Shown here piece after piece: positions 21,164 through 57,861 of a DNA stretch of 64,000 bases (the first letter of the stretch is position 1; every line of letters begins with the position of its first letter). A model generated the notes under the pieces. That model was not told the DNA's origin, made no database searches, and saw only the letters and a list, made by a program, of their open reading frames with translations. The translations under genes and the position numbers were made by a program. The DNA is from an uncultured virus (IMG/VR IMGVR_UViG_3300046462_000389) (Duplodnaviria; Heunggongvirae; Uroviricota; Caudoviricetes): IMG/VR virus record IMGVR_UViG_3300046462_000389. One strand, written 5' to 3'.

Positions 21164-21529
21164 CTACGCCCCCTCCTGCGACACGGCAAGGTCCCCGTAG
21201 GTCCCGTTCTCTGGCCAGCGGTAACGCACCCGAGGCTCGGTCTTGCCGTCGCTCTGGTGCTTCATCGGGATCACCACCTTGACCCCGAAGTGCCTGCACG
21301 GCGTGGCGACGGTGTGCCCGCAGAGCAGGCAGGGCTTGTGCACCACCTTGACCGGCCAGTACTCACGCGGGCTGCAGCGACGGCAGAACCTGACCGACCG
21401 CAGATCGTCCAGATCCTCCTCGACGACGTGGTGGGTCGAGCCGTGACCGGTCATGAACTTCTCGACGCACTCTCTGCTGAAGTGCTTCCTGGTCCGGTTC
21501 GCCAGCGATGAGGTGGAATAAACCTTCAT
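21164..21529 (-). CDS. Cys/His-rich hypothetical protein, first gene of the leftward block
   Basis: H..REC, CRRC, CLLC..C.H; GGGGG RBS. Confidence 0.65.
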   Translation of the reverse strand: MKVYSTSSLANRTRKHFSRECVEKFMTGHGSTHHVVEEDLDDLRSVRFCRRCSPREYWPVKVVHKPCLLCGHTVATPCRHFGVKVVIPMKHQSDGKTEPRVRYRWPENGTYGDLAVSQEGA

Positions 21530-21546
21530 TACAGCCCCCTTTTATG

Positions 21547-21581
21547 TTGCTTTCAAGCATATTTGGTGGGACAATAGAGGT
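21547..21581 (+). promoter_or_regulatory. Promoter P1
   Basis: TTGCTT-17-(TGn)GACAAT followed by AGAGGT. Confidence 0.75.
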
Positions 21582-21688
21582 ATCGCGGACTATTCTGTCC
21601 AAACCACAGCGTCAGCCCCGGGCTGATCGTCGGAGAAGGTACCCCCCATCTCCGAGAGACGATACCCCACAGCCCGGGGCTGGCTTTT
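21582..21688 (+). ncRNA. Candidate sRNA1, long hairpin with C-rich loops
   Basis: After P1; GTCAGCCCCGGGCTG/CAGCCCGGGGCTGGC, ATCGTC/GACGAT, GGAGA/TCTCC stems; TTTT end; no credible ORF. Confidence 0.6.
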
Positions 21689-21696
21689 ATAAAGTG

Positions 21697-21711
21697 TGCG
21701 ATAATAGAGAT
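21697..21711 (+). promoter_or_regulatory. Promoter P2 (extended -10)
   Basis: TGc GATAAT AGAGAT. Confidence 0.7.
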
Positions 21712-21811
21712 ATCGCGGATCAAGGCGTACCTGCTGGTTGCAGCAGAGGGTTGAAGTCCCACCGTGATATCGAATAAATAGCTCGTCAGCACTGTGCTGG
21801 CGGGCCTTTTT
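21712..21811 (+). ncRNA. Candidate sRNA2, tRNA-like junction plus terminator
   Basis: ATCGCGG/CCGTGAT closing stem, CTGCTG/CAGCAG arm, GGG-TTGAAGT-CCC arm, then an 11-bp hairpin and TTTTT. Confidence 0.6.
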
Positions 21812-21812
21812 G

Positions 21813-21848
21813 TTGCATAAATGCCCCTATTTATGCGATAATAGAGGT
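21813..21848 (+). promoter_or_regulatory. Promoter P3 with palindromic spacer
   Basis: TTGCAT-18-(TGc)GATAAT AGAGGT; GCATAAAT/ATTTATGC inverted repeat. Confidence 0.75.
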
Positions 21849-21916
21849 AACGCAGCGACCGCATGTCCAAATGCGGATCGCAACAGGCTCAGACCAATCC
21901 CGGTCTGGGCCTTTTT
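21849..21916 (+). ncRNA. Candidate sRNA3 or attenuated leader
   Basis: GCGACCGCAT/ATGCGGATCGC hairpin, then GGCTCAGACC/GGTCTGGGCC + TTTTT. Confidence 0.6.
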
Positions 21917-21954
21917 GTTTGCCCGAGATACGGGCAGGAGTAAGGAGTTAGACA

Positions 21955-22251
21955 ATGACTTACGAGACTGACGCGTACTTAGCACGGATGACTGCGGAGA
22001 ACAATGCGTATTTCGCAAGAATGAAGGCCGAGAACGATGCGTACTTCGCCCGAATGAAGGCAGAGAACGATGCGTACTTCAGCGGCAGCAGCAGCGGCAG
22101 CAGCTGGAGCAGCGGAGTGGGCAGTGCGTCCTACGGACGTGGTGTGTCCGACGCACGGCTGCATCAGAAGTCCGGGCCGAGCAACTCCTTCGGAGGCTAC
22201 ACCAAGGTCAACCACGGTAACGGCACCTTCAGCATGAAGAAGGCCAAGTAA
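21955..22251 (+). CDS. Small early protein with 11-aa repeats
   Basis: AAGGAG RBS; DAYFARMKAEN repeats. Confidence 0.8.
   Translation: MTYETDAYLARMTAENNAYFARMKAENDAYFARMKAENDAYFSGSSSGSSWSSGVGSASYGRGVSDARLHQKSGPSNSFGGYTKVNHGNGTFSMKKAK
21970..22080 (+). repeat. 33-bp coding tandem repeat, about 3.4 copies
   Basis: GATGCGTACTTCGCCCGAATGAAGGCAGAGAAC-like units with mostly synonymous differences. Confidence 0.85.
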
Positions 22252-22272
22252 GACGCCAGTTGACGCTTCGAC

Positions 22273-22322
22273 TTGGCCCCCGTCCTGCACGGTGGCCTTG
22301 TCGTTGTGCCAGAAGGTACAAC
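22273..22322 (+). repeat. Intergenic double-hairpin element, copy 1
   Basis: TTGGCCCCCGTC..ACGGTGGCCTTGTCGTTGTGCCAGAAGGTACAAC. Confidence 0.75.
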
Positions 22323-22377
22323 CCGAGAGCTACTAGCCCCTTAGGGGCAACAGGTAGACAAATTCAAGGAGTAAGAC

Positions 22378-22680
22378 ATGCAGTTCAACGAGACCATCGA
22401 GAAGATCTCGAACCTGCTCCACCCCGAACCCAAGGACTGGGACGAGCTGAGCACCGGTCGCAAGGTGTACGTCATCATCGGCACCGCCATCTTCGTCGCC
22501 ACCACGGTGTTCGAGATCAAGCAGATCATCGACGGCATCCGGGAGAGCCGCAGGCTCGACCGGGAGCTGGAGGAGGCCCACAAGGAGTTCGAGCAGTACA
22601 TCGACCTGAATCTGAAGATCCACACCGATCCGACCCAGGCGTGGGGAGACATCACCACCGATCTGCCCAGCGGTGAGTAG
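22378..22680 (+). CDS. Single-TM hypothetical protein
   Basis: AAGGAG RBS; hydrophobic VYVIIGTAIFVATTV. Confidence 0.75.
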   Translation: MQFNETIEKISNLLHPEPKDWDELSTGRKVYVIIGTAIFVATTVFEIKQIIDGIRESRRLDRELEEAHKEFEQYIDLNLKIHTDPTQAWGDITTDLPSGE

Positions 22681-22774
22681 CCGCAAGCAGGCGAGGATCG
22701 ACCGCAAGCTGGCTGTCATCAAGCGGGAGCAGACCAAGGAGAAAGACACTCCTGTGGTCAAGAAGAACTCCTGA
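22673..22774 (+). CDS. 33-aa basic peptide
   Basis: GTG overlapping the previous gene; MSSRKQARIDRKLAVIKREQTKEKDTPVVKKNS fills the gap. Confidence 0.45.
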   Translation: MSSRKQARIDRKLAVIKREQTKEKDTPVVKKNS

Positions 22775-22782
22775 CCATCAAG

Positions 22783-22833
22783 TTGGTCCCCGTCTACGGA
22801 CGGGGGCCTTCTTGTTGTTCAGAGGGACAACAA
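22783..22833 (+). repeat. Intergenic double-hairpin element, copy 2
   Basis: TTGGTCCCCGTCTACGGACGGGGGCCTTCTTGTTGTTCAGAGGGACAACAA. Confidence 0.8.
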
Positions 22834-22855
22834 ATACACAAGCAGGAGGCTTGGA

Positions 22856-23356
22856 GTGAGCGGAACGATGGATGTAGTCGGTATCACTGGATCAGCAGGT
22901 GCTGGTGCAGTTGCCGGAGGAATGCTGGTGGAGGCGTCCGGCCTCACAGCGGCTGGCATGATCGGCGGCGGTACCGGCATCGGCATGGCTGCTGGACCGG
23001 TCGGCATGGTGGCCGGTGGTCTCATCGGAGCAACTGTGTACGGCGTGTACATGGTCGGTAGGAGTCTGCTGTTCCCACCACGCCCAGAGATGATCTGGGG
23101 CGTGTGCGAGGTCCAAGGATGCTGGAGGCACCTGCTGCCTCATGGGGCGTTCGACAAGGTGCCCCACTGCTGGGCGCACCGGATCTTCTACGGGAAGTGC
23201 CCCGAGTCGTACTGCAACCTGGACATGCTGCCCAGCACCTACGGCGACCCGGTTCCGCACTGCTGGGAGCACCCGTGGAACAAGGCCGAGTTCGTCACCG
23301 AGAACCCGCAGATCTGCATCGGAGGCAACCTGTACAACGCCTGCACCTGCATCTGA
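22856..23356 (+). CDS. Gly-zipper membrane protein with duplicated Cys/His motifs
   Basis: GGAGG RBS; GxxxG-rich N-half; two C-x4-C..VPHCW.H units. Confidence 0.7.
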   Translation: MSGTMDVVGITGSAGAGAVAGGMLVEASGLTAAGMIGGGTGIGMAAGPVGMVAGGLIGATVYGVYMVGRSLLFPPRPEMIWGVCEVQGCWRHLLPHGAFDKVPHCWAHRIFYGKCPESYCNLDMLPSTYGDPVPHCWEHPWNKAEFVTENPQICIGGNLYNACTCI

Positions 23357-23364
23357 GCTTCGAG

Positions 23365-23413
23365 TTGGCCCCCGTCTGCGGACGGGGGCCTTCTTGTTGT
23401 GCAGAAGCGCAAC
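23365..23413 (+). repeat. Intergenic double-hairpin element, copy 3
   Basis: TTGGCCCCCGTCTGCGGACGGGGGCCTTCTTGTTGTGCAGAAGCGCAAC. Confidence 0.8.
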
Positions 23414-23448
23414 GCAAACAGCCCAGAGAGGGCTCAACCCAAGGAGTG

Positions 23449-31066: not shown

Positions 31067-31447
31067 GTGAACATAGTCACTTCGCCTCCCAGCCTGACCT
31101 ATCAGCTGGGGGCCACTGTCAGCGACCTGGAACAGCCGTACTGGCAGTTCAGTGTCGTCCACCGCAACAACCGGACCTGCTACTACCACGCTGTCGCGTT
31201 CCGGGCCAAGGCCTACCGGGAGCTGTTGCCAGGTCACCACGGCCACATGATGCTCGCTACCGATGTCTGGCACGTCAAGGTCTACGCGCTCCCTCAGGAG
31301 CGCTCTGACGGGCTCTACGACGTGACCACCCCGTGTGCCAGGGGTCAGGTGCCCTTCATGGCCCGCAGCCAGCTGAAGAGGGCTCTGCTGGAGGCTGGAG
31401 TGCCCGAGGGAGTCCGCGCTCTCGACCACGTCTTCGGGGAGGTCTGA
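31067..31447 (+). CDS. Hypothetical protein
   Basis: AGGAG RBS before GTG. Confidence 0.65.
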   Translation: MNIVTSPPSLTYQLGATVSDLEQPYWQFSVVHRNNRTCYYHAVAFRAKAYRELLPGHHGHMMLATDVWHVKVYALPQERSDGLYDVTTPCARGQVPFMARSQLKRALLEAGVPEGVRALDHVFGEV

Positions 31448-31779
31448 TGACTGAGTCCAAGGTCGCTCAGATGGAGCTGGAGAACTACTACCGGAAGATG
31501 GACCTGTACCGGGAGAAGGTGCGGGGCGCTGGCAGAGCGATCTGCGAGTCCAGGCTGGAGCATGGCTGGTCGGTGAACGACCTGGCCAACCAACTGGGCT
31601 GCAGCAGGGGCCAGCTCAACCAGATCGAGACCGGGCACAGGCTGCCCTCCGACGAGCTGTGCAGGCGGGCTGCCGAGCTGCTGGGCCTGAAGCCACGAGA
31701 GCTGTTGAACCTCAAGTACAGGGCCAAGTCGGCAGTCCCGCCTGCTGAGCCGTGGACACCCACCAAGGAGTCGGTCTAG
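31447..31779 (+). CDS. XRE-family HTH regulator
   Basis: RLEHGWSVNDLANQLGCSRGQLNQIETG.RLPS; TGATG overlap. Confidence 0.85.
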   Translation: MTESKVAQMELENYYRKMDLYREKVRGAGRAICESRLEHGWSVNDLANQLGCSRGQLNQIETGHRLPSDELCRRAAELLGLKPRELLNLKYRAKSAVPPAEPWTPTKESV

Positions 31780-31782
31780 AGC

Positions 31783-32100
31783 TTCCCGAGGTACAGGTGT
31801 GGAAACCTGTCTCCCCCTCGGGAACAGAGGCACCCCCTGGGCCAGTCGCCCAGGGGGTGCTACTCTGCAGAAACCGAGAGGCTTACTGTCCAGGTCAGCC
31901 TCGATCGGGTGTTCACAGCCTATCGCTACGAGCGCCCGTACCAGTCAAGGGAGGTACTGCCTGCTCGTCGGGGATTCTATCTGTTCCATCCGATCACCTG
32001 TTCGACCCAGCTTTAGTGCGAACGGGCAAGGCTCAGTAGTCGGAACTCTGGCAGATGTAGATGACCGAGGGGACGACCACAGGCAATGTGGACCCTAAAA
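31783..32100 (+). ncRNA. Candidate structured non-coding element
   Basis: About 320 nt of successive stems with no credible ORF. Confidence 0.4.
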
Positions 32101-32116
32101 GTCCTTGGAAGGGATC

Positions 32117-32407
32117 ATGAAGGCTAAGCTCAATTCTGTCTGTCATGCCTGCAAAAAGCCGATTTCTCTTGGAGAAACAATCGTCAAGGAATCAGTAGGG
32201 TGGGTTCACCTGAAGTGTTCAGTCACTGGTAAAGAACCTAAAAAGAAACCAAGGAAAAGAACTGGGTTGTCCAAGGAACCTGGTCTTAGCCCAGAGGTCT
32301 CCTTCAGTGAGAACGCTAGGAGGGTTAACTCAGGAGAAACGTTCAGAAGTAGGAAACCCAGTACCTACAGAAGAGGAAAAAGTCCCGGATCGTACCGAGA
32401 CAACTAA
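32117..32407 (+). CDS. Basic Zn-ribbon protein with atypical codons
   Basis: CHAC..I..GE..WVHLKC then a K/R-rich tail. Confidence 0.6.
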   Translation: MKAKLNSVCHACKKPISLGETIVKESVGWVHLKCSVTGKEPKKKPRKRTGLSKEPGLSPEVSFSENARRVNSGETFRSRKPSTYRRGKSPGSYRDN

Positions 32408-32428
32408 CAACTTCAAAGGGGTAGATAG

Positions 32429-32965
32429 ATGATAGTTCTGTTGATCATCTTGGGTTCGATCTTCGCCTACCTGATGATAGGAAGACTCCTGGTCGTCAGG
32501 TACAGGAGACAGATCACCAAGACCAACACCACTCTTTCCGATTACTACGACAAGCAGGACAAAACCCACTACACCGGTAGAAACGTGAGTAGTGATAATC
32601 GTTACTCTCTGTTGGCCATGCAGTTTGCCTGGCCGGTCTACTTCTGGGTGATGAAGACCAACATCACCTATGACGAAGTAGAGCTGGAGGTAGACGACCA
32701 GGAAAGGACCGAGTACACCAAGTACCTGGAAGACTCCCAACAGCGTCTAGCCAGACTCCAGGAACGTCAGGAGAAGTTGGCAATCGAAAGGATCCAGAAG
32801 CTGGCTGAACTGGAGAAGGACAACCCGCTATCTCTCTCTCAGGAGACAGCGTTAGAGGTGGTGCTCCCAAAAGCCCAAAAGGACCAGGAGAAAAAGAGTC
32901 CACAGGTGAGGGTGTACAACCAGAGCTGGATAACAACAGATCCGAGCCGAAGAGAGCCTCGGTAG
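32429..32965 (+). CDS. Membrane-anchored hypothetical protein
   Basis: N-terminal TM; atypical codon usage. Confidence 0.6.
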   Translation: MIVLLIILGSIFAYLMIGRLLVVRYRRQITKTNTTLSDYYDKQDKTHYTGRNVSSDNRYSLLAMQFAWPVYFWVMKTNITYDEVELEVDDQERTEYTKYLEDSQQRLARLQERQEKLAIERIQKLAELEKDNPLSLSQETALEVVLPKAQKDQEKKSPQVRVYNQSWITTDPSRREPR

Positions 32966-33178
32966 AGAAGGACTACGACGACTACAGGGTGCTGTACGAG
33001 AAGTGCTCTGTCTGTGGGATGACGACGATGATCGCTCTGGTCGATAATTTTGGCACAATCCTGCACAGCACCAGGCGTCCTTGTATCTGCACCATGGATA
33101 TCTGTACCTGCTCTCTGGCTCATACCTGTGCTGTCTGTCAGGGCAAAGAGTGACCTAGTAATGGCGACCGAAAAAGAG

Positions 33179-33234
33179 TACAATAGAGGTAGTGCGCGTA
33201 AGCATGCCCAAGACCAACCGGTCTTGGGCTTTTT
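33179..33234 (+). ncRNA. Promoter P4 plus about 44-nt terminated RNA (sRNA4)
   Basis: TACAAT AGAGGT A, then GCCCAAGACC/GGTCTTGGGC + TTTTT; resembles the sRNA3 unit. Confidence 0.6.
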
Positions 33235-33329
33235 GTGTTTCTAGGGAGTATGGAGTGGTTAGACATGGTAAACGCCATGGTCATCGGAACAAGATGGCTT
33301 ACCGAGTACAGAGCAGAAAAGGAGCGGTG

Positions 33330-35072
33330 ATGGAGGTCACCCTAGGACCCGCTAGAAAGCGGTCCGGAATCGACATGGAGTTGTTCAAGAAGCAGTACCG
33401 ACTGGTCGGTCCTGTGAAGAACCAGTGCTGGAACTGGATCGGTGAGTACTACGGTCCGGCATCCTTCACCCCCACCAGCGGTGGGAGAAACCCAGCTGTC
33501 CGCTGGATCTTCGAGACGATGATCGGCTCTCTGCCAGAGCGGATCGTGCTGATGCCGGACGAGAAGTGCACCTTGTCCAATACCATCCCCAAGGGGAAGC
33601 GAACCCCGGAACGGGGTAACTGTGTCAACCCCGAGCACTACTACGCGATGACTCCCCTGGATGCCTACCGGCTGGACCTGGGGAACAAGGCCAAGGACGA
33701 GTGTGTCAACGGTCATCCCTACAGTCAGGACACGGTCACCTACTCGGTACAGAACCGTCAGGTCTTCTGCCGGGTCTGCCGAGGCGAGAGCCTGGAGGAG
33801 CCCACCAAGCCACTCCAGACCGAGGTCGAGGTCGCGCAGGTGAAGAAGCAGAACGACAAGGAGTCACTGGTGACACCAACGACTGACAAGCAGAGCTGGA
33901 CGGTCAAGCTCGGGGAGCCGGTGGGCTATGACGCTGCCGAGCTGAACAGGTTCATGTCCCAGACCACGAAGCAGGGTGACAAGCCCTGTCTGGTCTGGAC
34001 CGGTGCTGCCTACCGGTCCCACCGGGCCAAAGGCACTCGGCAGGAGGGCCAACTTCGACCGATGTTCCGGACTGCTGATGGCAAGGAGAACCGGGCTCAT
34101 CGCTGGATCTTCGAGATCATGGAAGGTGAGCTGCCCGAGAACACCGTCCTGATCAAAGAGGACGACTGCGAGGAGCTGTGTGTCGATCCGACCCATCAGA
34201 TCCCGCTCACCAGGCCGGAGTACATGTCCTCTCGTAAGGATGTCCGGAAGAAGCTGTTCTGCCTCAACGGTCATCGGTACGCTCCTGGCACCTACGAGGT
34301 GAATGCCAAGGGCTACCGACGCTGCCTGATCTGTGCTGCCAACGCCCAGAAGGCCAGGAAGCAGAAGCGCCTGATGGACTGGGTGACGGAGTCCTGGTAC
34401 ATCCTCCATCAGCTCATCGAGGACATGCCCGAGGACGAGTTCGACGAGGTGGTGGACACCATGTACCCGTGGCTCTACAACTTTGTCGAGCCGGACGAAA
34501 AGACCAGGCATGCCCGGCTCCAGTTCTACGTTGAGCAGCGTCGGGAGAGGTCTCTGAAGGCCTCAGAGCCAGAGCCAGTGGTCACCACTCAGGAGGAGGA
34601 CGAGGCCTCTAAGGTCCTTCCTGAGCCTGCTGAGATGCCGATGGAGGCTCAGGCTGCCTTCTCCGGTACTCAGCTGTCCGACATGGTCACTGAGCGAATG
34701 CACTTCCTCGGTGAAGTCCCGGGTGAACGTGATGGCCGACTCATCTTCGATGAGCCAATGGAGCCAGAGCCACGGCCTGTCTCCTCCGGCAACTACTTGT
34801 CCAACCTGGTCAGTGACCGAGCGGATCTCCGGGAGCCAGAGCCAGAGATCATCGAGAAGGAAGAGCCCGATGACTACGAGCCCGATGATGCCCAAGATGT
34901 GCTGGATGCCTTCCGGGCGCACCTGGACGAGATCGGGCTGACACCATCGGAGGAACGGGTGAAGGTGGCGATCGCCTTCGAGATCCCAATCGGCAGGGCA
35001 GGTATCACGCTGATGAACATCATGACCTCACTGACTGGCGTAGGTGCCACGAAGGTGAGGTTCAAGTCGTAG
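33330..35072 (+). CDS. Protein with two degenerate HNH/Zn-finger modules and an acidic tail
   Basis: CWNW..RWIFE..CVNPEH..CVNGH..CRVC twice; AGGAG RBS. Confidence 0.75.
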   Translation: MEVTLGPARKRSGIDMELFKKQYRLVGPVKNQCWNWIGEYYGPASFTPTSGGRNPAVRWIFETMIGSLPERIVLMPDEKCTLSNTIPKGKRTPERGNCVNPEHYYAMTPLDAYRLDLGNKAKDECVNGHPYSQDTVTYSVQNRQVFCRVCRGESLEEPTKPLQTEVEVAQVKKQNDKESLVTPTTDKQSWTVKLGEPVGYDAAELNRFMSQTTKQGDKPCLVWTGAAYRSHRAKGTRQEGQLRPMFRTADGKENRAHRWIFEIMEGELPENTVLIKEDDCEELCVDPTHQIPLTRPEYMSSRKDVRKKLFCLNGHRYAPGTYEVNAKGYRRCLICAANAQKARKQKRLMDWVTESWYILHQLIEDMPEDEFDEVVDTMYPWLYNFVEPDEKTRHARLQFYVEQRRERSLKASEPEPVVTTQEEDEASKVLPEPAEMPMEAQAAFSGTQLSDMVTERMHFLGEVPGERDGRLIFDEPMEPEPRPVSSGNYLSNLVSDRADLREPEPEIIEKEEPDDYEPDDAQDVLDAFRAHLDEIGLTPSEERVKVAIAFEIPIGRAGITLMNIMTSLTGVGATKVRFKS

Positions 35073-54378: not shown

Positions 54379-55302
54379 TCAAGCGGCACCTTCGACCGTG
54401 GCTGAGCCGAGCACAGCGGTCTTGGACGCGGTCTGGTAGACCAGCCGCAGTCGCTTGGACCGGCCAGATGCCCCCTTGCCGAGCTTGCCGACGAAGGTGA
54501 TCTCAGCGGTGCGGTAGCCAGCAGCCCCGCCGACAAGCCTGCGCGAGTCACGACGCCCTGACCAGCCGGTCGGCCACTTGGCATCGCCACCGTCGCCCTT
54601 GGTGTCACAGATGGTCCAGGCGATGTCGATCGCCTCACCGTCCTTGAGCCCGGTGATGGTGACGTTGGCGGTGTACACGATGATCTGGTCACCCGTGTCC
54701 TGGGCAGCTGTAGCCGAACCGCTGTCGTTCAGCGGGAAGGCCACGTTCCACTTCCCGGAGGTATCGGTCGGGATCCTCCAGTCCGTGCTGCGCCTCATGC
54801 TGGTTGCCTGGGTCATGCCAAGGAGTCCCTTCGGTTCGGGCGGTGCTGCTGGCTTCTTGTTCTTGACGGCCTGTTGCCAGGTCGGGGTGGACGATCCCTT
54901 GGGACCAGGTCCGGTGATCGGTCCACGACCGACCAGACCATTCCTACCGGCTTCCCACTCACTCTGCTGGTAGGCAGCTCCGCTGGAGACGTGCGGACAG
55001 CCTTTCCAGACGCCGTGACCGTGGGGGGAGAACTTCTGCGCAACAGTGCGGTGCTGCATCTCCACGCCCCACGAGCGCCAGACGGCCAGTGCTGCATCGG
55101 AGAAGTTACCGGTGTCCAGCACCCCTCCGCCGTCGTGAGTTCCGGCAGAAGCGGTGACCCCGCCCTTGTTGTAGCCAGCCTGGAAGATGGTGATCGAGCC
55201 GTTCTGGCTGATGATCCCCTTGGCCTTCATCTCGGCTTCGATCAGCGGCAGAGTGATGCGTTGGCACTCGCAGACCTTCCAGCCCCGATACATCACCACC
55301 AT
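54379..55302 (-). CDS. Endolysin, Zn-peptidase (M15-like) domain plus C-terminal domain
   Basis: SAGTHDGGGVLD and PHGH Zn ligands; probable leaderless start (TACGAT-6nt-ATG). Confidence 0.8.
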   Translation of the reverse strand: MVVMYRGWKVCECQRITLPLIEAEMKAKGIISQNGSITIFQAGYNKGGVTASAGTHDGGGVLDTGNFSDAALAVWRSWGVEMQHRTVAQKFSPHGHGVWKGCPHVSSGAAYQQSEWEAGRNGLVGRGPITGPGPKGSSTPTWQQAVKNKKPAAPPEPKGLLGMTQATSMRRSTDWRIPTDTSGKWNVAFPLNDSGSATAAQDTGDQIIVYTANVTITGLKDGEAIDIAWTICDTKGDGGDAKWPTGWSGRRDSRRLVGGAAGYRTAEITFVGKLGKGASGRSKRLRLVYQTASKTAVLGSATVEGAA

Positions 55303-55352
55303 GGCCTCATCGTAGAGCAGGGCAGCCTGGACGCCGCTGAGATGATGGCCCT

Positions 55353-56270
55353 ATGCCATGGGAGCGTCAGGGTAGCGGGTTCACCACCAAGGATCGAGGT
55401 GGTTATGTCAAGAACCCCGCGCAGTACGAGAAGCTCCGCTCCAAGGGCATGAGCAAGCAGCGGGCTGCTGCCATCACCAACTCGGTCAACAAGGGAGCCA
55501 CGGTGTACGACGGTGAGTTTGCCAAGGCGTTCTGGACCAGGCGCACCGATGAGCAGAAGGAACAGCTACGCGGTCTGCGGAGCAACCTGAAGCGCGCCAA
55601 GCGGCGGCGAGCAGGTGCTCGGGACTCGGCTGCCTTCAATGCCGAGCAGAAATTCCGGGATCGTAATCCGCACCTGTCGCTGGCTGCCGACATGTCCAAC
55701 GCTGTCTTCCCCGCTACCCACACCTCCAACGCGCTGAATGCCGGGTTCGCGGGCGCGAGAAACCGTGGAGTCCAGGAGCATCAGAACTCCGCGTACGGCC
55801 AGCGGCTGGAGCGGGACGTGAAACGGCACCGGACCAACTACCGCCAGGGCAAGAAGGAACTCAAAAAAGGAGCCAACATGATCGACAGCCCGTGGGAGCA
55901 GAGCGCCTTCTCTCCCGTCTCCAAGGCTCGGCAGGCCAACCGTAACCAGGCAATCGGACAGGGTGCAGGTGATCTCCTGGGTGCTGGGGCGATCGGCTCC
56001 GGTGTCGGTGCCGCGATGTCTGCGAAGAGCGGCAAGAAGTGGAGTGCCGGTTGGCGAGCTGGTGGTCGGACCACGGCTGAGTCTGCTGCTGGCGGTGCTG
56101 GTGGTGCGCTGGCTGGTGCTGGCATCGGTGCGTTGACTCGTCGTCCCACTGGGATCCAGACCGGTGCCCGGGTCGGTGGGTTGGTCGGCGGTATCGGTGG
56201 TGGTTTCCACGGCGGTAACGCCTCGGTCAACAACTCCCGCAACAAGGGTTGGCTGAAGCGCGGTTACTGA
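55353..56270 (+). CDS. Basic Gly/Ala-rich probable head-internal protein
   Basis: YEKLR.KGMSKQRAAAI.N N-terminus, xK(A/G) motifs, Gly zipper. Confidence 0.6.
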   Translation: MPWERQGSGFTTKDRGGYVKNPAQYEKLRSKGMSKQRAAAITNSVNKGATVYDGEFAKAFWTRRTDEQKEQLRGLRSNLKRAKRRRAGARDSAAFNAEQKFRDRNPHLSLAADMSNAVFPATHTSNALNAGFAGARNRGVQEHQNSAYGQRLERDVKRHRTNYRQGKKELKKGANMIDSPWEQSAFSPVSKARQANRNQAIGQGAGDLLGAGAIGSGVGAAMSAKSGKKWSAGWRAGGRTTAESAAGGAGGALAGAGIGALTRRPTGIQTGARVGGLVGGIGGGFHGGNASVNNSRNKGWLKRGY

Positions 56271-56295
56271 TGGCAAGGGCGATGAGGGAGAAACC

Positions 56296-57861
56296 ATGAC
56301 TTTGCAGATGGTCGACAGCTCGATCTCCAAGGCTGCTCCGCTGTTCACCACGCACGAGCGGAGAGAACGAGCCAATCGTTCTCAGCAGGCTCAGGACAAC
56401 ATGGGCCTCGGTATCACGGCTGCTGGTGGTGGTGGCTACGCCATTCATCGCGGTGCTAAGCATCTCGGGGCTGCCGGTCGCGCCTTCAACCTGTCGAACC
56501 AGAGCTACCGCTCAGGAGTGGCAGAAGAGGCCAAGAACAAGCCGTTCAGCACCAAGTTCGAGCGTCAGTCGCCCAAGAAGAAGGCCAAGCCCTACCGGTC
56601 GACCTCGACCACGCTGGAGCAGTCTTCTCGTACCTGGGGGGTACACAACCCGACCGCCAAGACCAACGCCTGGAACGCCTACCACCACTTCGCGGAGGGT
56701 GCGCGGTACCGCAAGATCGGACAGGGTCTGCGAGGACGTGGTGCGCTGCTCGCTGGTGGTGGTCTGGCTGCTGTCGGTGGTGGAACTGCCCTAGTTCGGC
56801 ACGGTTACCGCCAGTCGAATGCTCTGAAAGAGGAGAGGCGAGTACGCCAGTCAGAGCGTCGGGCCATGTCCAAAGCTGACTGGCAGACCCTGGAGAACAT
56901 CGACCGTAGTTCGAGCAAACAGCGCCGGAAGCAGAAGAGCGCCAAGGTGGCCGGATCAGCTGGTCTGGCGATTGCCGCTGCACCGCTGGTGGCCGATCTG
57001 CAGGGCACCCATGGTGCCGCTGACAGCTTCAGCCAGGCCCGTGGTCTGGGTACCAGGGTCAAGGCTGCCTCCAGCAGGTTCTACCCGGGAGGCGCGGGCA
57101 AGCGGGCAGGCACGGTGCTCAGGGCTGCTCGGGCCTTCCCCAAGGGCACCGCGCTGCTCGCTGGTGGAGCCCTGGCAGCTGGTGGGGGCAGCAAGTTCGC
57201 CTACCACTACGCCCGGGAGAAGCACTTCAACAACGAGGCAGCTGTCCGGCGCAAGTCCAACCATCAGGACTACCTGCGGAACAGGCGTCGGGTCAACAAG
57301 GCTCTCGGCCAGTCCATCCTGAAGCCACTGAAGGCCATGAAGCCAGCGGCTCGTGAGCTGCGGGCGGCTAAGAAGACCATGCCTGCGACGGCCCGGACAG
57401 TGGGTGCTCCCAAGGCCGGGACCAAGACAACCAACACCAGTGTCAACAAGCCGATGGGCTTCATGCGTCCGGGCAAGACCACCACCACCAACATGACCTG
57501 GGGTCAGGGTGGGACCAGCGCCATGGACCGGACTACGACATCGGGTAGGAAGGACAACTTCCTCTACCGACCTGCCAAGCACTTCGAGACGACCAGTACG
57601 GTGCGCTCCGGTCTGGGAGCTCCGAGCACCACCAGCACCAGCGGTACTACTCCCGGGCAGTTCACCAACAAGGGCAAGGTGGCCTTCGGTGCTGGTCTGG
57701 GGGTGGCTGGCACGGCAGGTGCACAGCAGGTCCACCAGAACACGGCGCAGCGTCGACAGCTGACCACCAGCGCCTTCGCCAAGAGCGCGCCAGACCAGGC
57801 AGACGCGCATGTTGTCGGTACGCTCAGGCGAGTAAAGAAGGTGCCCAGGAAGGCGGGTTAG
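56296..57861 (+). CDS. Basic Gly/Ala-rich probable head-internal polyprotein
   Basis: ISKA, MSKA, VNKA, FAKS motifs separating basic segments. Confidence 0.6.

What the first reader, a model, noticed from the sequence alone, without database searches (positions are those of the whole stretch)
21547..21916. Tandem array of three promoter-structured RNA-terminator units, with a fourth at 33179
Seen: the motif (G/T)A(C/T)AAT-AGAG(G/A)T-A occurs at 21570, 21700, 21837 and 33179. Each reads as a -10 hexamer followed by the same 6-nt spacer and an A, which is the -10-to-start spacing of the leaderless genes in this window. Each copy is followed by 44-107 nt of ORF-free sequence that folds and ends in a GC hairpin plus T run. 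RNAs 1 and 2 both start AUCGCGGA, RNAs 1 and 3 share GUCCAAA, and terminators 3 and 4 are near copies. Inference: a phage sRNA cassette at the divergence point of the genome. Alternatively these are cis-acting antiterminator leaders analogous to HK022 put, because the only clear promoters ahead of the 22-kb early region all run into terminators.
Basis: partly seen in the sequence, partly recalled or inferred. Interest (0 to 1): 0.85.

Follow-up and report, generated by a model that had tools for sequence, protein, structure and literature searches.

The report
Phage small-RNA array with tRNA mimic
An uncultivated soil phage carries, at the point where its two gene arms diverge, three back-to-back mini-genes (plus a fourth elsewhere) that each pair a host-type promoter with a short folded RNA and a terminator, and the middle one makes an anticodon-less tRNA look-alike that related phages keep at the same spot.

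Summary
The 12-base motif occurs exactly four times in 64 kb (0.16 expected). Copies 1-3 carry an extended -10 (TGN) signature. Copies 2-4 are followed by the only three strong canonical + strand terminators in the window, and copy 1 by a 74-nt hairpin plus T run.

The array lies between a leftward replication module and a roughly 42-kb rightward arm of an actinophage-like genome that has no close cultured relative.

Unit 2 (21712-21768) is a tRNA-like RNA. It has an acceptor-like stem that starts at the predicted +1, a single-stranded linker, a tetraloop hairpin and a T arm, but no D arm or anticodon arm. Five related phage lineages keep the same fold at the same locus, each with its own promoter and terminator, through compensatory changes. 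A model built without the window's sequence still finds it. It matches no Rfam family.

Units 3 and 4 belong to a recurrent type of short leader plus terminator that sits in front of the first rightward gene in relatives. Unit 1 is specific to this lineage.

Expression and function are untested. The sRNA-cassette reading is partly supported. The put-like reading has no specific support. Novelty is moderate, and the same tRNA-like family was already noted twice by this scan.

The parts
21547..21582 (+). Promoter 1: -35-like hexamer 21547-21552, 17-nt spacer ending in TGG (21567-21569), -10 hexamer 21570-21575, conserved 6-nt discriminator 21576-21581, predicted +1 A at 21582
   Evidence: Read from the sequence. 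Motif statistics are and the extended -10 scan. In strain X12, 7 of the 10 differences listed for this stretch fall in 21534-21565, outside the conserved core.
21582..21688 (+). RNA 1 (about 107 nt): small 5' hairpin 21587-21600, a 74-nt hairpin 21611-21684 with a C-rich apical loop, and T run 21685-21688
   Evidence: MFE -55.5 kcal/mol, z -6.9. The only Rfam hit is a sub-threshold hairpin match (F6, 22 bits against a gathering score of 46). No homologue was recognised in relatives, and no long complement to the loop was found in the window.
21697..21712 (+). Promoter 2: TGC, -10 hexamer 21700-21705, discriminator 21706-21711, predicted +1 A at 21712
   Evidence: The T run of terminator 1 lies 8 nt upstream of the TGC, so the two form a composite terminator/promoter joint.
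21712..21768 (+). tRNA-like core of RNA 2: 7-bp end stem 21712-21718 with 21762-21768, 12-nt linker 21719-21730, 6-bp hairpin with a 4-nt loop 21731-21746, T-arm-like hairpin 21748-21760 (3 G-C pairs, 7-nt loop)
   Evidence: MFE and centroid fold. Covariance models R1 and R2 score it 68.7 and 62 bits. Model R3, built from 5 relatives only, ranks it first in the window at 26.9 bits, E 2.5e-5. ARAGORN calls no tRNA in the window.
21781..21811 (+). Terminator 2: 11-bp hairpin 21781-21805 and T run 21807-21811
21813..21849 (+). Promoter 3: -35-like hexamer 21813-21818, TGC 21834-21836, -10 hexamer 21837-21842, discriminator 21843-21848, predicted +1 A at 21849
   Evidence: In run X16, two contigs match only 21838 to 21871 or 21873 and then continue with unrelated sequence on both sides.
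21849..21916 (+). RNA 3 / leader of the rightward arm (about 68 nt): hairpin 21855-21881, terminator hairpin 21885-21912, T run 21912-21916
   Evidence: MFE -37.2 kcal/mol, z -6.7. Terminator. Relatives L035 and L036 and unit B of L101 and L024 have the same layout.
21942..22251 (+). Ribosome-binding site (21942-21947) and first rightward gene (21955-22251, 98 aa, unknown function)
   Evidence: No Pfam or PHROG family matched.
33179..33234 (+). Unit 4: -10 hexamer 33179-33184 (no TG), discriminator 33185-33190, predicted +1 A at 33191, small hairpin 33192-33205, terminator 33206-33229, T run 33230-33234. It lies upstream of an HNH-endonuclease gene (probable start 33330).
   Evidence: Its first roughly 18 nt resemble the start of unit B in L101 and L024.
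21164..21529 (-). Context: first gene of the leftward arm, a 121-aa four-cysteine protein conserved beside the array in relatives and followed by DnaB-type helicase, primase and DnaE-type polymerase genes
   Evidence: No Pfam, PHROG, PDB-sequence or Foldseek match.
22265..23390 (+). Context: three copies of a terminator-like repeat (about 22265-22295, 22785-22808, 23367-23390) behind the first three small rightward genes
   Evidence: families D2 and D9. Strain X12 carries extra DNA between copies of the 62-nt element 22261-22322.

Best explanation
The region is a cassette of three self-contained small transcription units. It lies at the head of the rightward arm of an uncultivated, actinophage-like soil phage, and a fourth unit of the same make sits 11 kb downstream.

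**Shared design.** Each unit starts at a host primary-sigma promoter of the extended -10 type. In this lineage the -10 and discriminator have been copied almost unchanged. Each unit ends at an intrinsic terminator. This anatomy is shown by sequence and comparison; the transcripts themselves are inferred.

**Unit 2.** It encodes a stable RNA of about 57 nt (about 100 nt with its terminator) that mimics the upper part of a tRNA.
- Its 5' end, at the predicted +1, pairs with its 3' part into an acceptor-like stem.
- A T-arm-like hairpin abuts that stem.
- A tetraloop hairpin stands where the long variable arm of a class II tRNA would be.
- There is no D arm and no anticodon stem.

I infer that it acts in trans, early in infection, by engaging a host factor that recognises the acceptor/T-arm part of tRNAs. 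That factor could be a processing or modifying enzyme, or a tRNA-directed defence factor. I do not think it decodes.

**Units 3 and 4.** They are short leaders: a small 5' hairpin followed directly by a strong terminator. In this phage and in several relatives such a leader lies between the last visible promoter and the first rightward gene. I infer that they work as promoter-proximal attenuators. Most transcripts stop as a short RNA, and the downstream genes are made by read-through.

**Unit 1.** It is a lineage-specific extra unit whose RNA is mainly one very long hairpin.
For: **The motif and its terminators**
- The motif has 4 matches against 0.16 expected, and 0 of 100 shuffles reach 4.
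- TGN stands before copies 1-3, and only 7 such patterns occur in 64 kb.
- The only three + strand terminators with stems of 10 or more pairs plus a T run follow copies 2-4.
- All four RNAs fold better than shuffles, with z from -2.6 to -6.9.
- Frames crossing the array have GC3 of 0.47 and 0.58, against 0.77-0.89 in genes.

**The same design in relatives**
- Relatives were found through the helicase.
- L101 and L024 (54-55% helicase identity) have a promoter with nearly the same -10 and discriminator right after the homologue of the 121-aa gene, followed by a tRNA-like RNA, a terminator, and a second promoter-leader-terminator unit before the first rightward gene.
- L023, L075 and L134 (36-47% identity) have the same design.

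**The tRNA-like fold**
- A model built from 3 sequences found the 3 further lineages at the syntenic place and on the same strand, with E from 0.002 to 0.007.
- On the 6-sequence alignment, 92.7% of cells pair, against 38-56% when the partners are slid.
- 12 of 18 pairs change on both sides, and 0 of 500 shuffles reach any of the five measures.
- A model built from the five relatives alone ranks window 21705-21774 first, at 26.9 bits and E 2.5e-5. The next hit scores 15.4 bits.
- In the window and in L023 the predicted +1 is the first base of the end stem.
- All 6 lineages have their own promoter-like site upstream and a terminator within about 45 nt downstream.

**The short leaders**
- Promoter units with a 41-48 nt RNA and a terminator were found by script in L032, L035, L036, L068 and L141.
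- In L035 and L036, read in full, the unit lies directly before the first rightward gene.
Against: - No RNA data exist for this phage, so starts, ends and abundance are all predictions.
- The alignment used for covariation was fitted to the model's structure, and two of its six rows (L101, L024) are near copies of each other.
- The window's T loop departs from the tRNA consensus at its third base, and its T stem has only 3 pairs.
- The combined length of the end stem plus T stem varies from about 9 to 14 pairs between lineages. That does not fit a fixed 12-pair minihelix as read by tRNA enzymes.
- No CCA is encoded, and the base after the end stem is not conserved.
- Units 1, 3 and 4 have no covariation support. 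They could be by-products of recombination between promoter and terminator modules.
- A 26-codon ATG frame (21863-21943) spans terminator 3, so a translated leader is not excluded.
- A trans-acting role is a guess, and no partner or target was identified. I looked for a long complement to the RNA 1 loop and found 5 matches against 6 expected.
Confidence: 0.6

Rival explanations
1. The units are cis-acting antitermination modules, either HK022 put-like or lambda pR'/6S-like. A nascent RNA structure, or a factor loaded at the conserved promoter core, makes RNA polymerase resistant to termination. It would then pass the six or more terminators in the first 1.8 kb and transcribe the whole 42-kb rightward arm.
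For: - The rightward arm, from 21955 to beyond 64000, carries small genes followed by portal and tail genes, all on one strand.
- The only strong promoter-like sites ahead of it are those of the array.
- Each of these is followed by a strong terminator, and three more terminator-like repeats follow the first three genes.
- The 'promoter, then terminator, then first gene' design recurs in relatives.
- The tRNA-like RNA always lies in sense orientation upstream of that arm, in 6 of 6 lineages.
Against: - The last unit before the first gene shows no conserved structure across lineages.
- In 5 of 6 lineages another promoter with its own terminator lies between the tRNA-like RNA and the first gene, so transcripts from that promoter would lack the element.
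- No Rfam family matched.
- Among the 75 frames scanned against PHROGs and the 40 against Pfam, no antiterminator, sigma factor or RNA polymerase family was found.
- The spacer between -35 and -10, where lambda Q binds (recalled), is not conserved among the four copies and varies between strains.
Confidence: 0.13
2. The units are mobile regulatory modules rather than RNA genes, analogous to PeSL elements. Selection would act on composite terminator/promoter joints that bound gene cassettes and serve as recombination points. Units 1, 3 and 4 would then be cassettes with little or no cargo, and their short RNAs incidental. This can hold together with unit 2 being a real RNA gene.
For: - The T run of each terminator lies 8-25 nt before the next promoter core.
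- The promoter core and the terminator-like element are each repeated: families D8, D2 and D9.
- Strain X12 carries 592 and 632 extra letters between copies of the 62-nt element 22261-22322.
- Two contigs of run X16 share only 21838 to 21871 or 21873, which is the promoter core plus about 25 nt, and then differ on both sides.
- The relative G002 has one copy of the motif where the window has four.
- The number of units differs between lineages, from 1 to 3.
Against: - A short leader unit sits at the same place, directly before the first rightward gene, in several lineages whose helicases are only 39-55% identical. This suggests the unit is kept for what it does there.
- RNAs 1 and 3 fold far better than shuffles, beyond what their terminator hairpins alone explain.
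- The joints seen at 80% likeness in metagenome contigs may come from other organisms (note).
Confidence: 0.2
3. The 13-base motif is chiefly an operator for a phage regulator, for example the helix-turn-helix protein encoded at 31333-31779. The regulator would shut off or switch on four promoters together.
For: - The six bases between the -10 and +1 are conserved in all four copies, and nearly so in L101, L024 and L075. A primary-sigma promoter does not need this much conservation there.
- An HTH_3 protein is encoded in the rightward arm.
Against: - The motif is not palindromic and has no second half-site.
- In other relatives the same six positions differ while the units persist.
- Recent duplication within this lineage explains the identity equally well.
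Confidence: 0.07

Closest known systems
Class II tRNAs (Leu, Ser, bacterial Tyr) and phage tRNA genes
   Same: - RNA 2 shares the acceptor-type stem formed by the two ends.
- The hairpin stands where the long variable arm would be.
- A T arm with a 7-nt T-loop-like loop abuts the 3' strand of the end stem.
- A pattern taken from the family pulled mostly sequences that look like true long-arm tRNAs out of IMG/VR.
- More distant relatives carry real tRNA genes on the same strand a few kb away: L071, L076, L117 and L141.
   Different: - RNA 2 has no D arm and no anticodon stem, and ARAGORN calls no tRNA in the window, L101, L024, L023 or L075.
- The single call, on L134, is a forced parse that uses the T arm as the anticodon arm and the terminator as the T arm.
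- The end stem is 5-11 pairs long, and no CCA is encoded.
- It cannot decode.
mascRNA / menRNA tRNA-like RNAs (Rfam RF01684)
   Same: Both are small tRNA look-alikes with an acceptor stem and T arm. RF01684 is the best Rfam hit to the L101 member.
   Different: - The score is 18.2 bits against a gathering score of 42.5, with E 0.49, so this is not a member.
- mascRNA and menRNA are eukaryotic and are cut out of long transcripts by tRNA enzymes (recalled). Here the RNA has its own promoter and terminator.
YrlA, the bacterial and phage Y RNAs with a tRNA-like domain (PMC4201824; abstract and passages read)
   Same: Both are non-coding RNAs that mimic part of a tRNA, and both are found in actinobacteria and their phages.
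   Different: - In YrlA the order is T arm, then an acceptor-like stem-loop, then D arm, and the RNA ends form the Ro60-binding helix. Here the ends form the acceptor-like stem and there is no D arm.
- YrlA genes lie next to a Ro60 (TROVE) gene. No such family was seen among the frames scanned.
- Rfam gave no hit to such a family.
PeSL composite terminator/promoter motifs of T4-like phages (PMC4122927 abstract read; PMC2839356 seen in the search listing only)
   Same: Both are conserved small terminator-plus-early-promoter joints that bound cassettes in a variable early region. Both appear to act as points of exchange.
   Different: - The phage group and promoter type differ.
- Here at least one cassette carries a conserved structured RNA rather than an ORF.
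- Exchange is only hinted at, by metagenome contigs.
HK022 put RNAs, and the lambda pR'-6S RNA-tR' unit with Q antitermination
   Same: In both cases a strong promoter is followed closely by a terminator at the head of a very long operon, so a short terminated RNA is the default product.
   Different: - No put-like two-stem element is conserved across lineages.
- No Q-like or other antiterminator gene was recognised.
- The mechanism is untested here.
Stable RNAs C and D of the phage T4 tRNA gene cluster (recalled)
   Same: They are phage-encoded small stable RNAs of unknown function associated with tRNA genes.

Membership tests
Canonical tRNA | Cloverleaf with D arm and anticodon arm, detectable by a tRNA finder | tested here: not met
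   ARAGORN finds 0 tRNA or tmRNA genes in the window. The fold has only three helices.
Canonical tRNA | T arm with a 7-nt T loop (U-U-C-R-A-N-Y) closed by a G-C pair and abutting the 3' strand of the acceptor stem | tested here: inconclusive
   The loop has 7 nt, is closed by G-C and lies 1 nt from the 3' strand. Its third base is G instead of C, and the stem has 3 pairs. The five relatives have the consensus loop.
Canonical tRNA | 7-bp acceptor stem with a 3' CCA, encoded or added | not testable with these tools
   The window has a 7-bp end stem (21712-21718 with 21762-21768) but no encoded CCA. Whether one is added cannot be told from sequence.
Anticodon-less tRNA-like phage small RNA (uncatalogued family; noted by this scan as e1-5899444 and e1-3288411) | Three-helix core: end stem, single-stranded linker holding AAG, short hairpin, T arm | tested here: met
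   Model R3, built from five relatives without the window, gives 26.9 bits and E 2.5e-5 at 21705-21774, the top hit in the window. The MFE fold agrees.
Anticodon-less tRNA-like phage small RNA (uncatalogued family) | Own promoter and own terminator; located between the helicase operon and the first gene of the opposite arm | tested here: met
   Window. Relatives.
Anticodon-less tRNA-like phage small RNA (uncatalogued family) | Helices kept by compensatory changes | tested here: met
   12 of 18 pairs change on both sides. 92.7% of cells pair, against 38-56% when slid, and 0 of 500 shuffles reach the observed values. Caveat: the alignment was fitted to the model.
YrlA / bacterial Y RNA | T arm, acceptor-like stem-loop and D arm in that order, with a Ro60-binding helix formed by the ends and a neighbouring Ro60 (TROVE) gene | tested here: not met
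   The topology differs. No TROVE family was seen in the frames scanned.
mascRNA-menRNA (RF01684) and any other Rfam family | Score at or above the family's gathering threshold | tested here: not met
   0 matches at gathering thresholds over the whole window. In the E-value scan of 21450-22000 the best hit is F6, at 22.1 bits against 46.
HK022 put-type cis-acting antiterminator RNA | Conserved two-stem RNA between the promoter and the first terminator of the operon that makes polymerase termination-resistant in cis | tested here: inconclusive
   The position requirement is met. No conserved element is shared by the last units of different lineages. Activity cannot be tested here, and the put features are recalled, not read.
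PeSL-type composite terminator/promoter cassette boundary | Conserved terminator-plus-early-promoter joint repeated between small cassettes, with indels between close strains at those joints | tested here: inconclusive
   Strain differences at 22258-22322 and 21838-21873 are. These come from contigs at 80% likeness, so they are only a hint.

The most novel reading that the evidence does not exclude
RNA 2 is an early-made decoy. This anticodon-less tRNA mimic would be transcribed from a dedicated strong host-type promoter in the first minutes of infection. It would titrate or mislead a host factor that recognises the acceptor/T-arm half of tRNAs, for example a tRNA-directed defence nuclease or a tRNA-processing enzyme. 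The whole array would then be an RNA-only counter-defence and control cassette placed ahead of the early genes.
Probability: 0.12. Interest if true: 0.8.

Novelty: new variant of a known kind. Interest (0 to 1): 0.55.

Why it matters
Phage small RNAs are little known outside a few model phages, and almost nothing is known for actinobacterial phages.

- **A concrete test object.** The array is compact and easy to synthesise. It offers four near-identical promoter cores, four terminators, and an RNA whose fold is backed by covariation in six lineages.
- **A new RNA family.** The anticodon-less tRNA look-alike matches no Rfam family, and I found no description of it in four literature searches. 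If it binds tRNA enzymes or a defence factor, it would be a new kind of phage tRNA mimicry.
- **A gene-control question.** The recurrent design of promoter, terminator and then first gene at the head of a 40-kb arm raises the question of how these phages get past their own terminators. Reporter fusions can answer that directly.

Tried and rejected
**Database searches for the array or its RNAs**
- blastn of 21400-22300 against 50,697 GenBank phage records gave no match. tblastn of the 121-aa protein gave none either.
- A two-copy motif pattern in IMG/VR gave 20 loci, all of 25-49% GC and with no blastn or tblastx similarity to the window, so they are chance hits.
- A single-protein helicase scan of IMG/VR found no relative. 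The alignment-based scans did.
- An IMG/VR pattern scan for more family members returned 119 stretches, of which 80 were fetched. Only L228, which is the L101 record, scored like the family. The other 22 hits, at 26.8 bits or less, look like ordinary long-arm tRNAs; I did not check each one.
- Model R2 over 154 loci plus the window found no further member, apart from one weak hit at L134 909-983 with E 0.04.
- Gordonia phage Hanem has a 1.1-kb unannotated gap at the analogous divergence, but no R2 hit above 10.9 bits.
- The scan of reference genomes gave 2 distant helicase loci and no prophage relative, so no host could be named.
- The window's own assembly is not held. G001 is an identical fragment that covers only positions from 44327 onward.

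**Expression**
- No RNA holder is listed among the 24 soil and rhizosphere runs that hold the stretch.

**Side hypotheses**
- A C-rich-loop pairing target for RNA 1: the loop's complement gives 5 matches with up to 2 mismatches against 6 expected, and one of the 5 is the loop itself.
- The 121-aa neighbour as a known regulator: the AlphaFold model has pLDDT 81, but Foldseek found no PDB match at E of 0.001 or better, the PDB sequence search found nothing, and neither Pfam nor PHROGs matched.
- A minus-strand -10 hidden in the motif as the leftward promoter: it can be read in the window and in L101, but not in L023, so I dropped it.
- attP or a tRNA 3'-half remnant: rejected, because the 5' strand of the end stem covaries with the 3' strand.
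- Leaderless start at 33192: the frame is open from the base after +1, but it runs through terminator 4, and a start with a good ribosome-binding site lies at 33330. This is left open.

**Not available**
Full report

Yes. The 12-base core of the motif, searched with up to one mismatch on both strands, occurs four times in the 64-kb window. The matches are at 21571, 21701, 21838 and 33180, all on the + strand and all exact. Shuffles give 0.16 on average, and none of 100 reaches four.

Copies 1-3 are preceded by TGN, the mark of an extended -10 promoter. A loose pattern for such sites matches only seven times in the whole window, and three of those matches are these copies. Copy 4 has a good -10 hexamer but no TG.

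The association with terminators is striking. In my scan of the whole window, only three + strand hairpins have 10 or more pairs followed by four or more T. They are 21781-21805, 21885-21912 and 33206-33229, the ones that follow copies 2, 3 and 4 (the tool's own scan agrees). Copy 1 is followed by a 74-nt hairpin and TTTT.

All four predicted RNAs fold better than shuffled versions, with z of -6.9, -2.6, -6.7 and -4.6.

Mechanical reading frames do cross the array. The two long ones have third-position GC of 0.47 and 0.58, against 0.77-0.89 in the flanking genes.

**2. Where is it?**

Leftward of the array, on the - strand, lie a 121-aa four-cysteine protein, a DnaB-type helicase, a primase, a DnaE-type polymerase, a Cas4-type nuclease and a resolvase.

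Rightward, on the + strand, lie about 22 kb of small genes of unknown function, then an HNH endonuclease, an AAA protein, the portal gene and tail-fibre-like genes.

The genome has 61% GC, and the stretch occurs in soil and rhizosphere metagenomes. Its nearest cultured relatives are Gordonia, Brevibacterium and Streptomyces phages, at only 35% (polymerase) and 27% (helicase) identity. The array itself has no match in GenBank phages. An actinobacterial host is inferred, not shown.

**3. Relatives**

The helicase has metagenomic relatives. An alignment of them retrieved 79 metagenome loci and 75 IMG/VR loci.

In the two closest loci whose upstream DNA was available, L101 and L024 (54-55% identity), the same motif sits right after the homologue of the 121-aa gene, in the same orientation. 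Each has two units:
- Unit A is a promoter, an RNA of about 125-150 nt and a terminator.
- Unit B is a promoter, a short leader and a terminator, followed by the ribosome-binding site of the first rightward gene.

The 3' half of the unit A RNA has an obvious T arm.

**4. The tRNA look-alike**

The window's RNA 2 folds into three helices:
- a 7-bp stem between its first seven bases, beginning at the predicted +1, and 21762-21768;
- a 6-bp hairpin with a four-base loop;
- a T-arm-like hairpin.

A 12-nt single strand follows the 5' strand of the end stem.

L101 and L024 have the same architecture with different helix sequences.

| Step | Result |
|---|---|
| Model R1, built from these three sequences | Found three further lineages (L023=L102, L075=L131, L134), each upstream of the helicase on the opposite strand, E 0.002-0.007 |
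| Model R2, built from six sequences | Found no more in 154 loci |
| R2 on the 97%-complete relative G002 | One copy |
| Covariation on the six-row alignment | 92.7% of cells pair (38-56% when partners are slid); 12 of 18 pairs change on both sides; no shuffle of 500 reaches the observed values |
| Model R3, built from the five relatives alone | Window 21705-21774 is the top hit, 26.9 bits, E 2.5e-5; next 15.4 bits |

Two caveats apply to the covariation count. The alignment was fitted to the model, and L101 and L024 are close to each other.

All six lineages have a promoter-like site upstream and a terminator within about 45 nt downstream. In the window and in L023 the predicted +1 is the first base of the end stem.

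A pattern drawn from the family pulled mostly what look like true long-arm tRNAs out of IMG/VR. This suggests that the hairpin corresponds to the variable arm of a class II tRNA, and the linker to what is left of the anticodon region.

It is nevertheless not a tRNA.
- ARAGORN finds none in the window or in four of the five relatives. Its single call, on L134, is a forced parse.
- No Rfam family reaches threshold.
- The YrlA Y RNAs have a different helix order and sit beside Ro60 genes, and no such gene was seen here.

Two earlier reports of this scan, on the genomes that hold L101 and an L075-like contig, describe the same family. I reached the fold before reading them, and they are not independent evidence.

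**5. The other units**

Units 3 and 4 are short: a small 5' hairpin followed at once by a strong terminator.

The same design occurs in unit B of L101 and L024, whose first 18 nt resemble those of the window's unit 4. A script also found it, as 41-48 nt units, in L032, L035, L036, L068 and L141. In L035 and L036, which I read in full, it is the only unit and lies directly before the first rightward gene.

So 'promoter, short leader, terminator, first gene' is a recurrent design in this phage group, and the window's unit 3 is its local instance.

Unit 1 has no recognisable counterpart.

The four-fold identity of the -10 and discriminator is local to this lineage. G002 has one copy, and other relatives have different bases at the six discriminator positions.

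**6. Mobility hints**

- The promoter core and a terminator-like element are repeated.
- Three terminator-like repeats follow the first three rightward genes.
- In a close strain (X12), extra DNA lies between copies of the 62-nt element 22261-22322.
- In run X16, two contigs share only the promoter core plus about 25 nt.

This recalls the composite terminator/promoter joints (PeSLs) of T4-like phages (abstract read). Contigs laid at 80% likeness give only a hint.

**7. How it most likely works**

*Shown:* the anatomy, the conservation of unit 2's fold, and the recurrence of the leader design.

*Inferred:*
- Host RNA polymerase with its primary sigma starts at the four A residues.
- Most transcripts stop at the terminators, giving four short RNAs.
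- RNA 2 is a stable tRNA mimic acting in trans on some factor that reads the acceptor/T-arm half of tRNAs.
- Unit 3 acts as an attenuator, so that the rightward genes are expressed by read-through.

*Against a simple enzyme-mimic picture:* the stacked length of the end stem and T stem varies from about 9 to 14 pairs, no CCA is encoded, and the window's T loop has G at its third base.

*Antitermination.* Processive antitermination, whether by a put-like RNA or a Q-like protein, would explain how a 42-kb arm is read through six or more terminators. But nothing specific supports it: no conserved element in the last unit, no recognised antiterminator gene, and another promoter between the tRNA-like RNA and the first gene in 5 of 6 lineages.

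*A translated leader.* A 26-codon frame across terminator 3 leaves room for a translation-coupled variant, which I could not test.

**8. Verdict**

The sRNA-cassette reading is partly supported: strongly for unit 2, by design only for units 1, 3 and 4, and with no expression data for any of them. The put-like reading remains a minority possibility.

The tRNA-like RNA belongs to an uncatalogued family. I found no description of it in four literature searches, but this scan has already noted it in two other genomes.

I rate it a new variant of a known kind (phage-encoded tRNA-related small RNAs), of moderate interest.

Noticed in passing
window 21164-21529 (-); L023 4626-4961, L101 4589-4963, L035 2037-2333 and others (+): A small protein family heads the leftward replication operon next to the array in at least 10 loci. 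It has four invariant cysteines, a conserved P-C-x-H-N-G-G-V stretch and a W-P-E-N stretch. The AlphaFold model has pLDDT 81. It has no Pfam, PHROG, PDB-sequence or Foldseek match.
   Followed up: partly
window 22261-22322, 22771-22838, 23353-23420: A repeated element of about 60 nt ends in a terminator-like hairpin and follows each of the first three rightward genes. A contig of strain X12 holds 592 and 632 extra letters between copies of it, which suggests cassette gain or loss at these repeats.
   Followed up: partly
window 21838-21873: In run X16, two contigs (1331 and 584 nt) match only the promoter-3 core plus the first roughly 25 nt of RNA 3, and then continue with unrelated sequence on both sides. 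The same module appears to exist in other genomic contexts.
   Followed up: no
window 21863-21943; 33204 onward; L101, L024, L035, L036 leader units: Many short leader units carry ATG-C-C 13-17 nt after the predicted +1, at the 5' foot of the terminator. The frames that open there run across the terminator. In the window the frame has 26 codons and ends inside the ribosome-binding site of gene 21955. In L024 and L036 it runs in frame into the first gene. No Shine-Dalgarno sequence precedes them. A translated leader is not excluded.
   Followed up: partly
window 32001-34000: GC drops to 53% here, against about 61% elsewhere, around unit 4 and the start of a 580-626 aa HNH-endonuclease gene. This may be an inserted homing-endonuclease cassette carrying its own promoter unit.
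   Followed up: no
L075 about 4960-4860 (-) and L134 about 3940-3850 (-): These two distant relatives share a conserved, structured-looking non-coding stretch between the helicase start and the next gene. It was not analysed.
   Followed up: no
L101 about 4535-4487 (-) and L024 about 4533-4480 (-): The 5' half of the unit A RNA in these relatives holds a second hairpin with a T-loop-like loop, upstream of the tRNA-like core.
   Followed up: no
window 21955-22251: The first rightward gene encodes a 98-aa protein with three tandem 11-residue repeats followed by a Ser/Gly-rich stretch. It matches no family.
   Followed up: no
L299 2793-3957 (Gordonia phage Hanem, OP867024 about 55162-56326): A cultured distant relative has a 1.1-kb unannotated gap at the analogous divergence point upstream of its helicase operon. 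The tRNA-like model finds nothing there, and its content was not analysed.
   Followed up: partly
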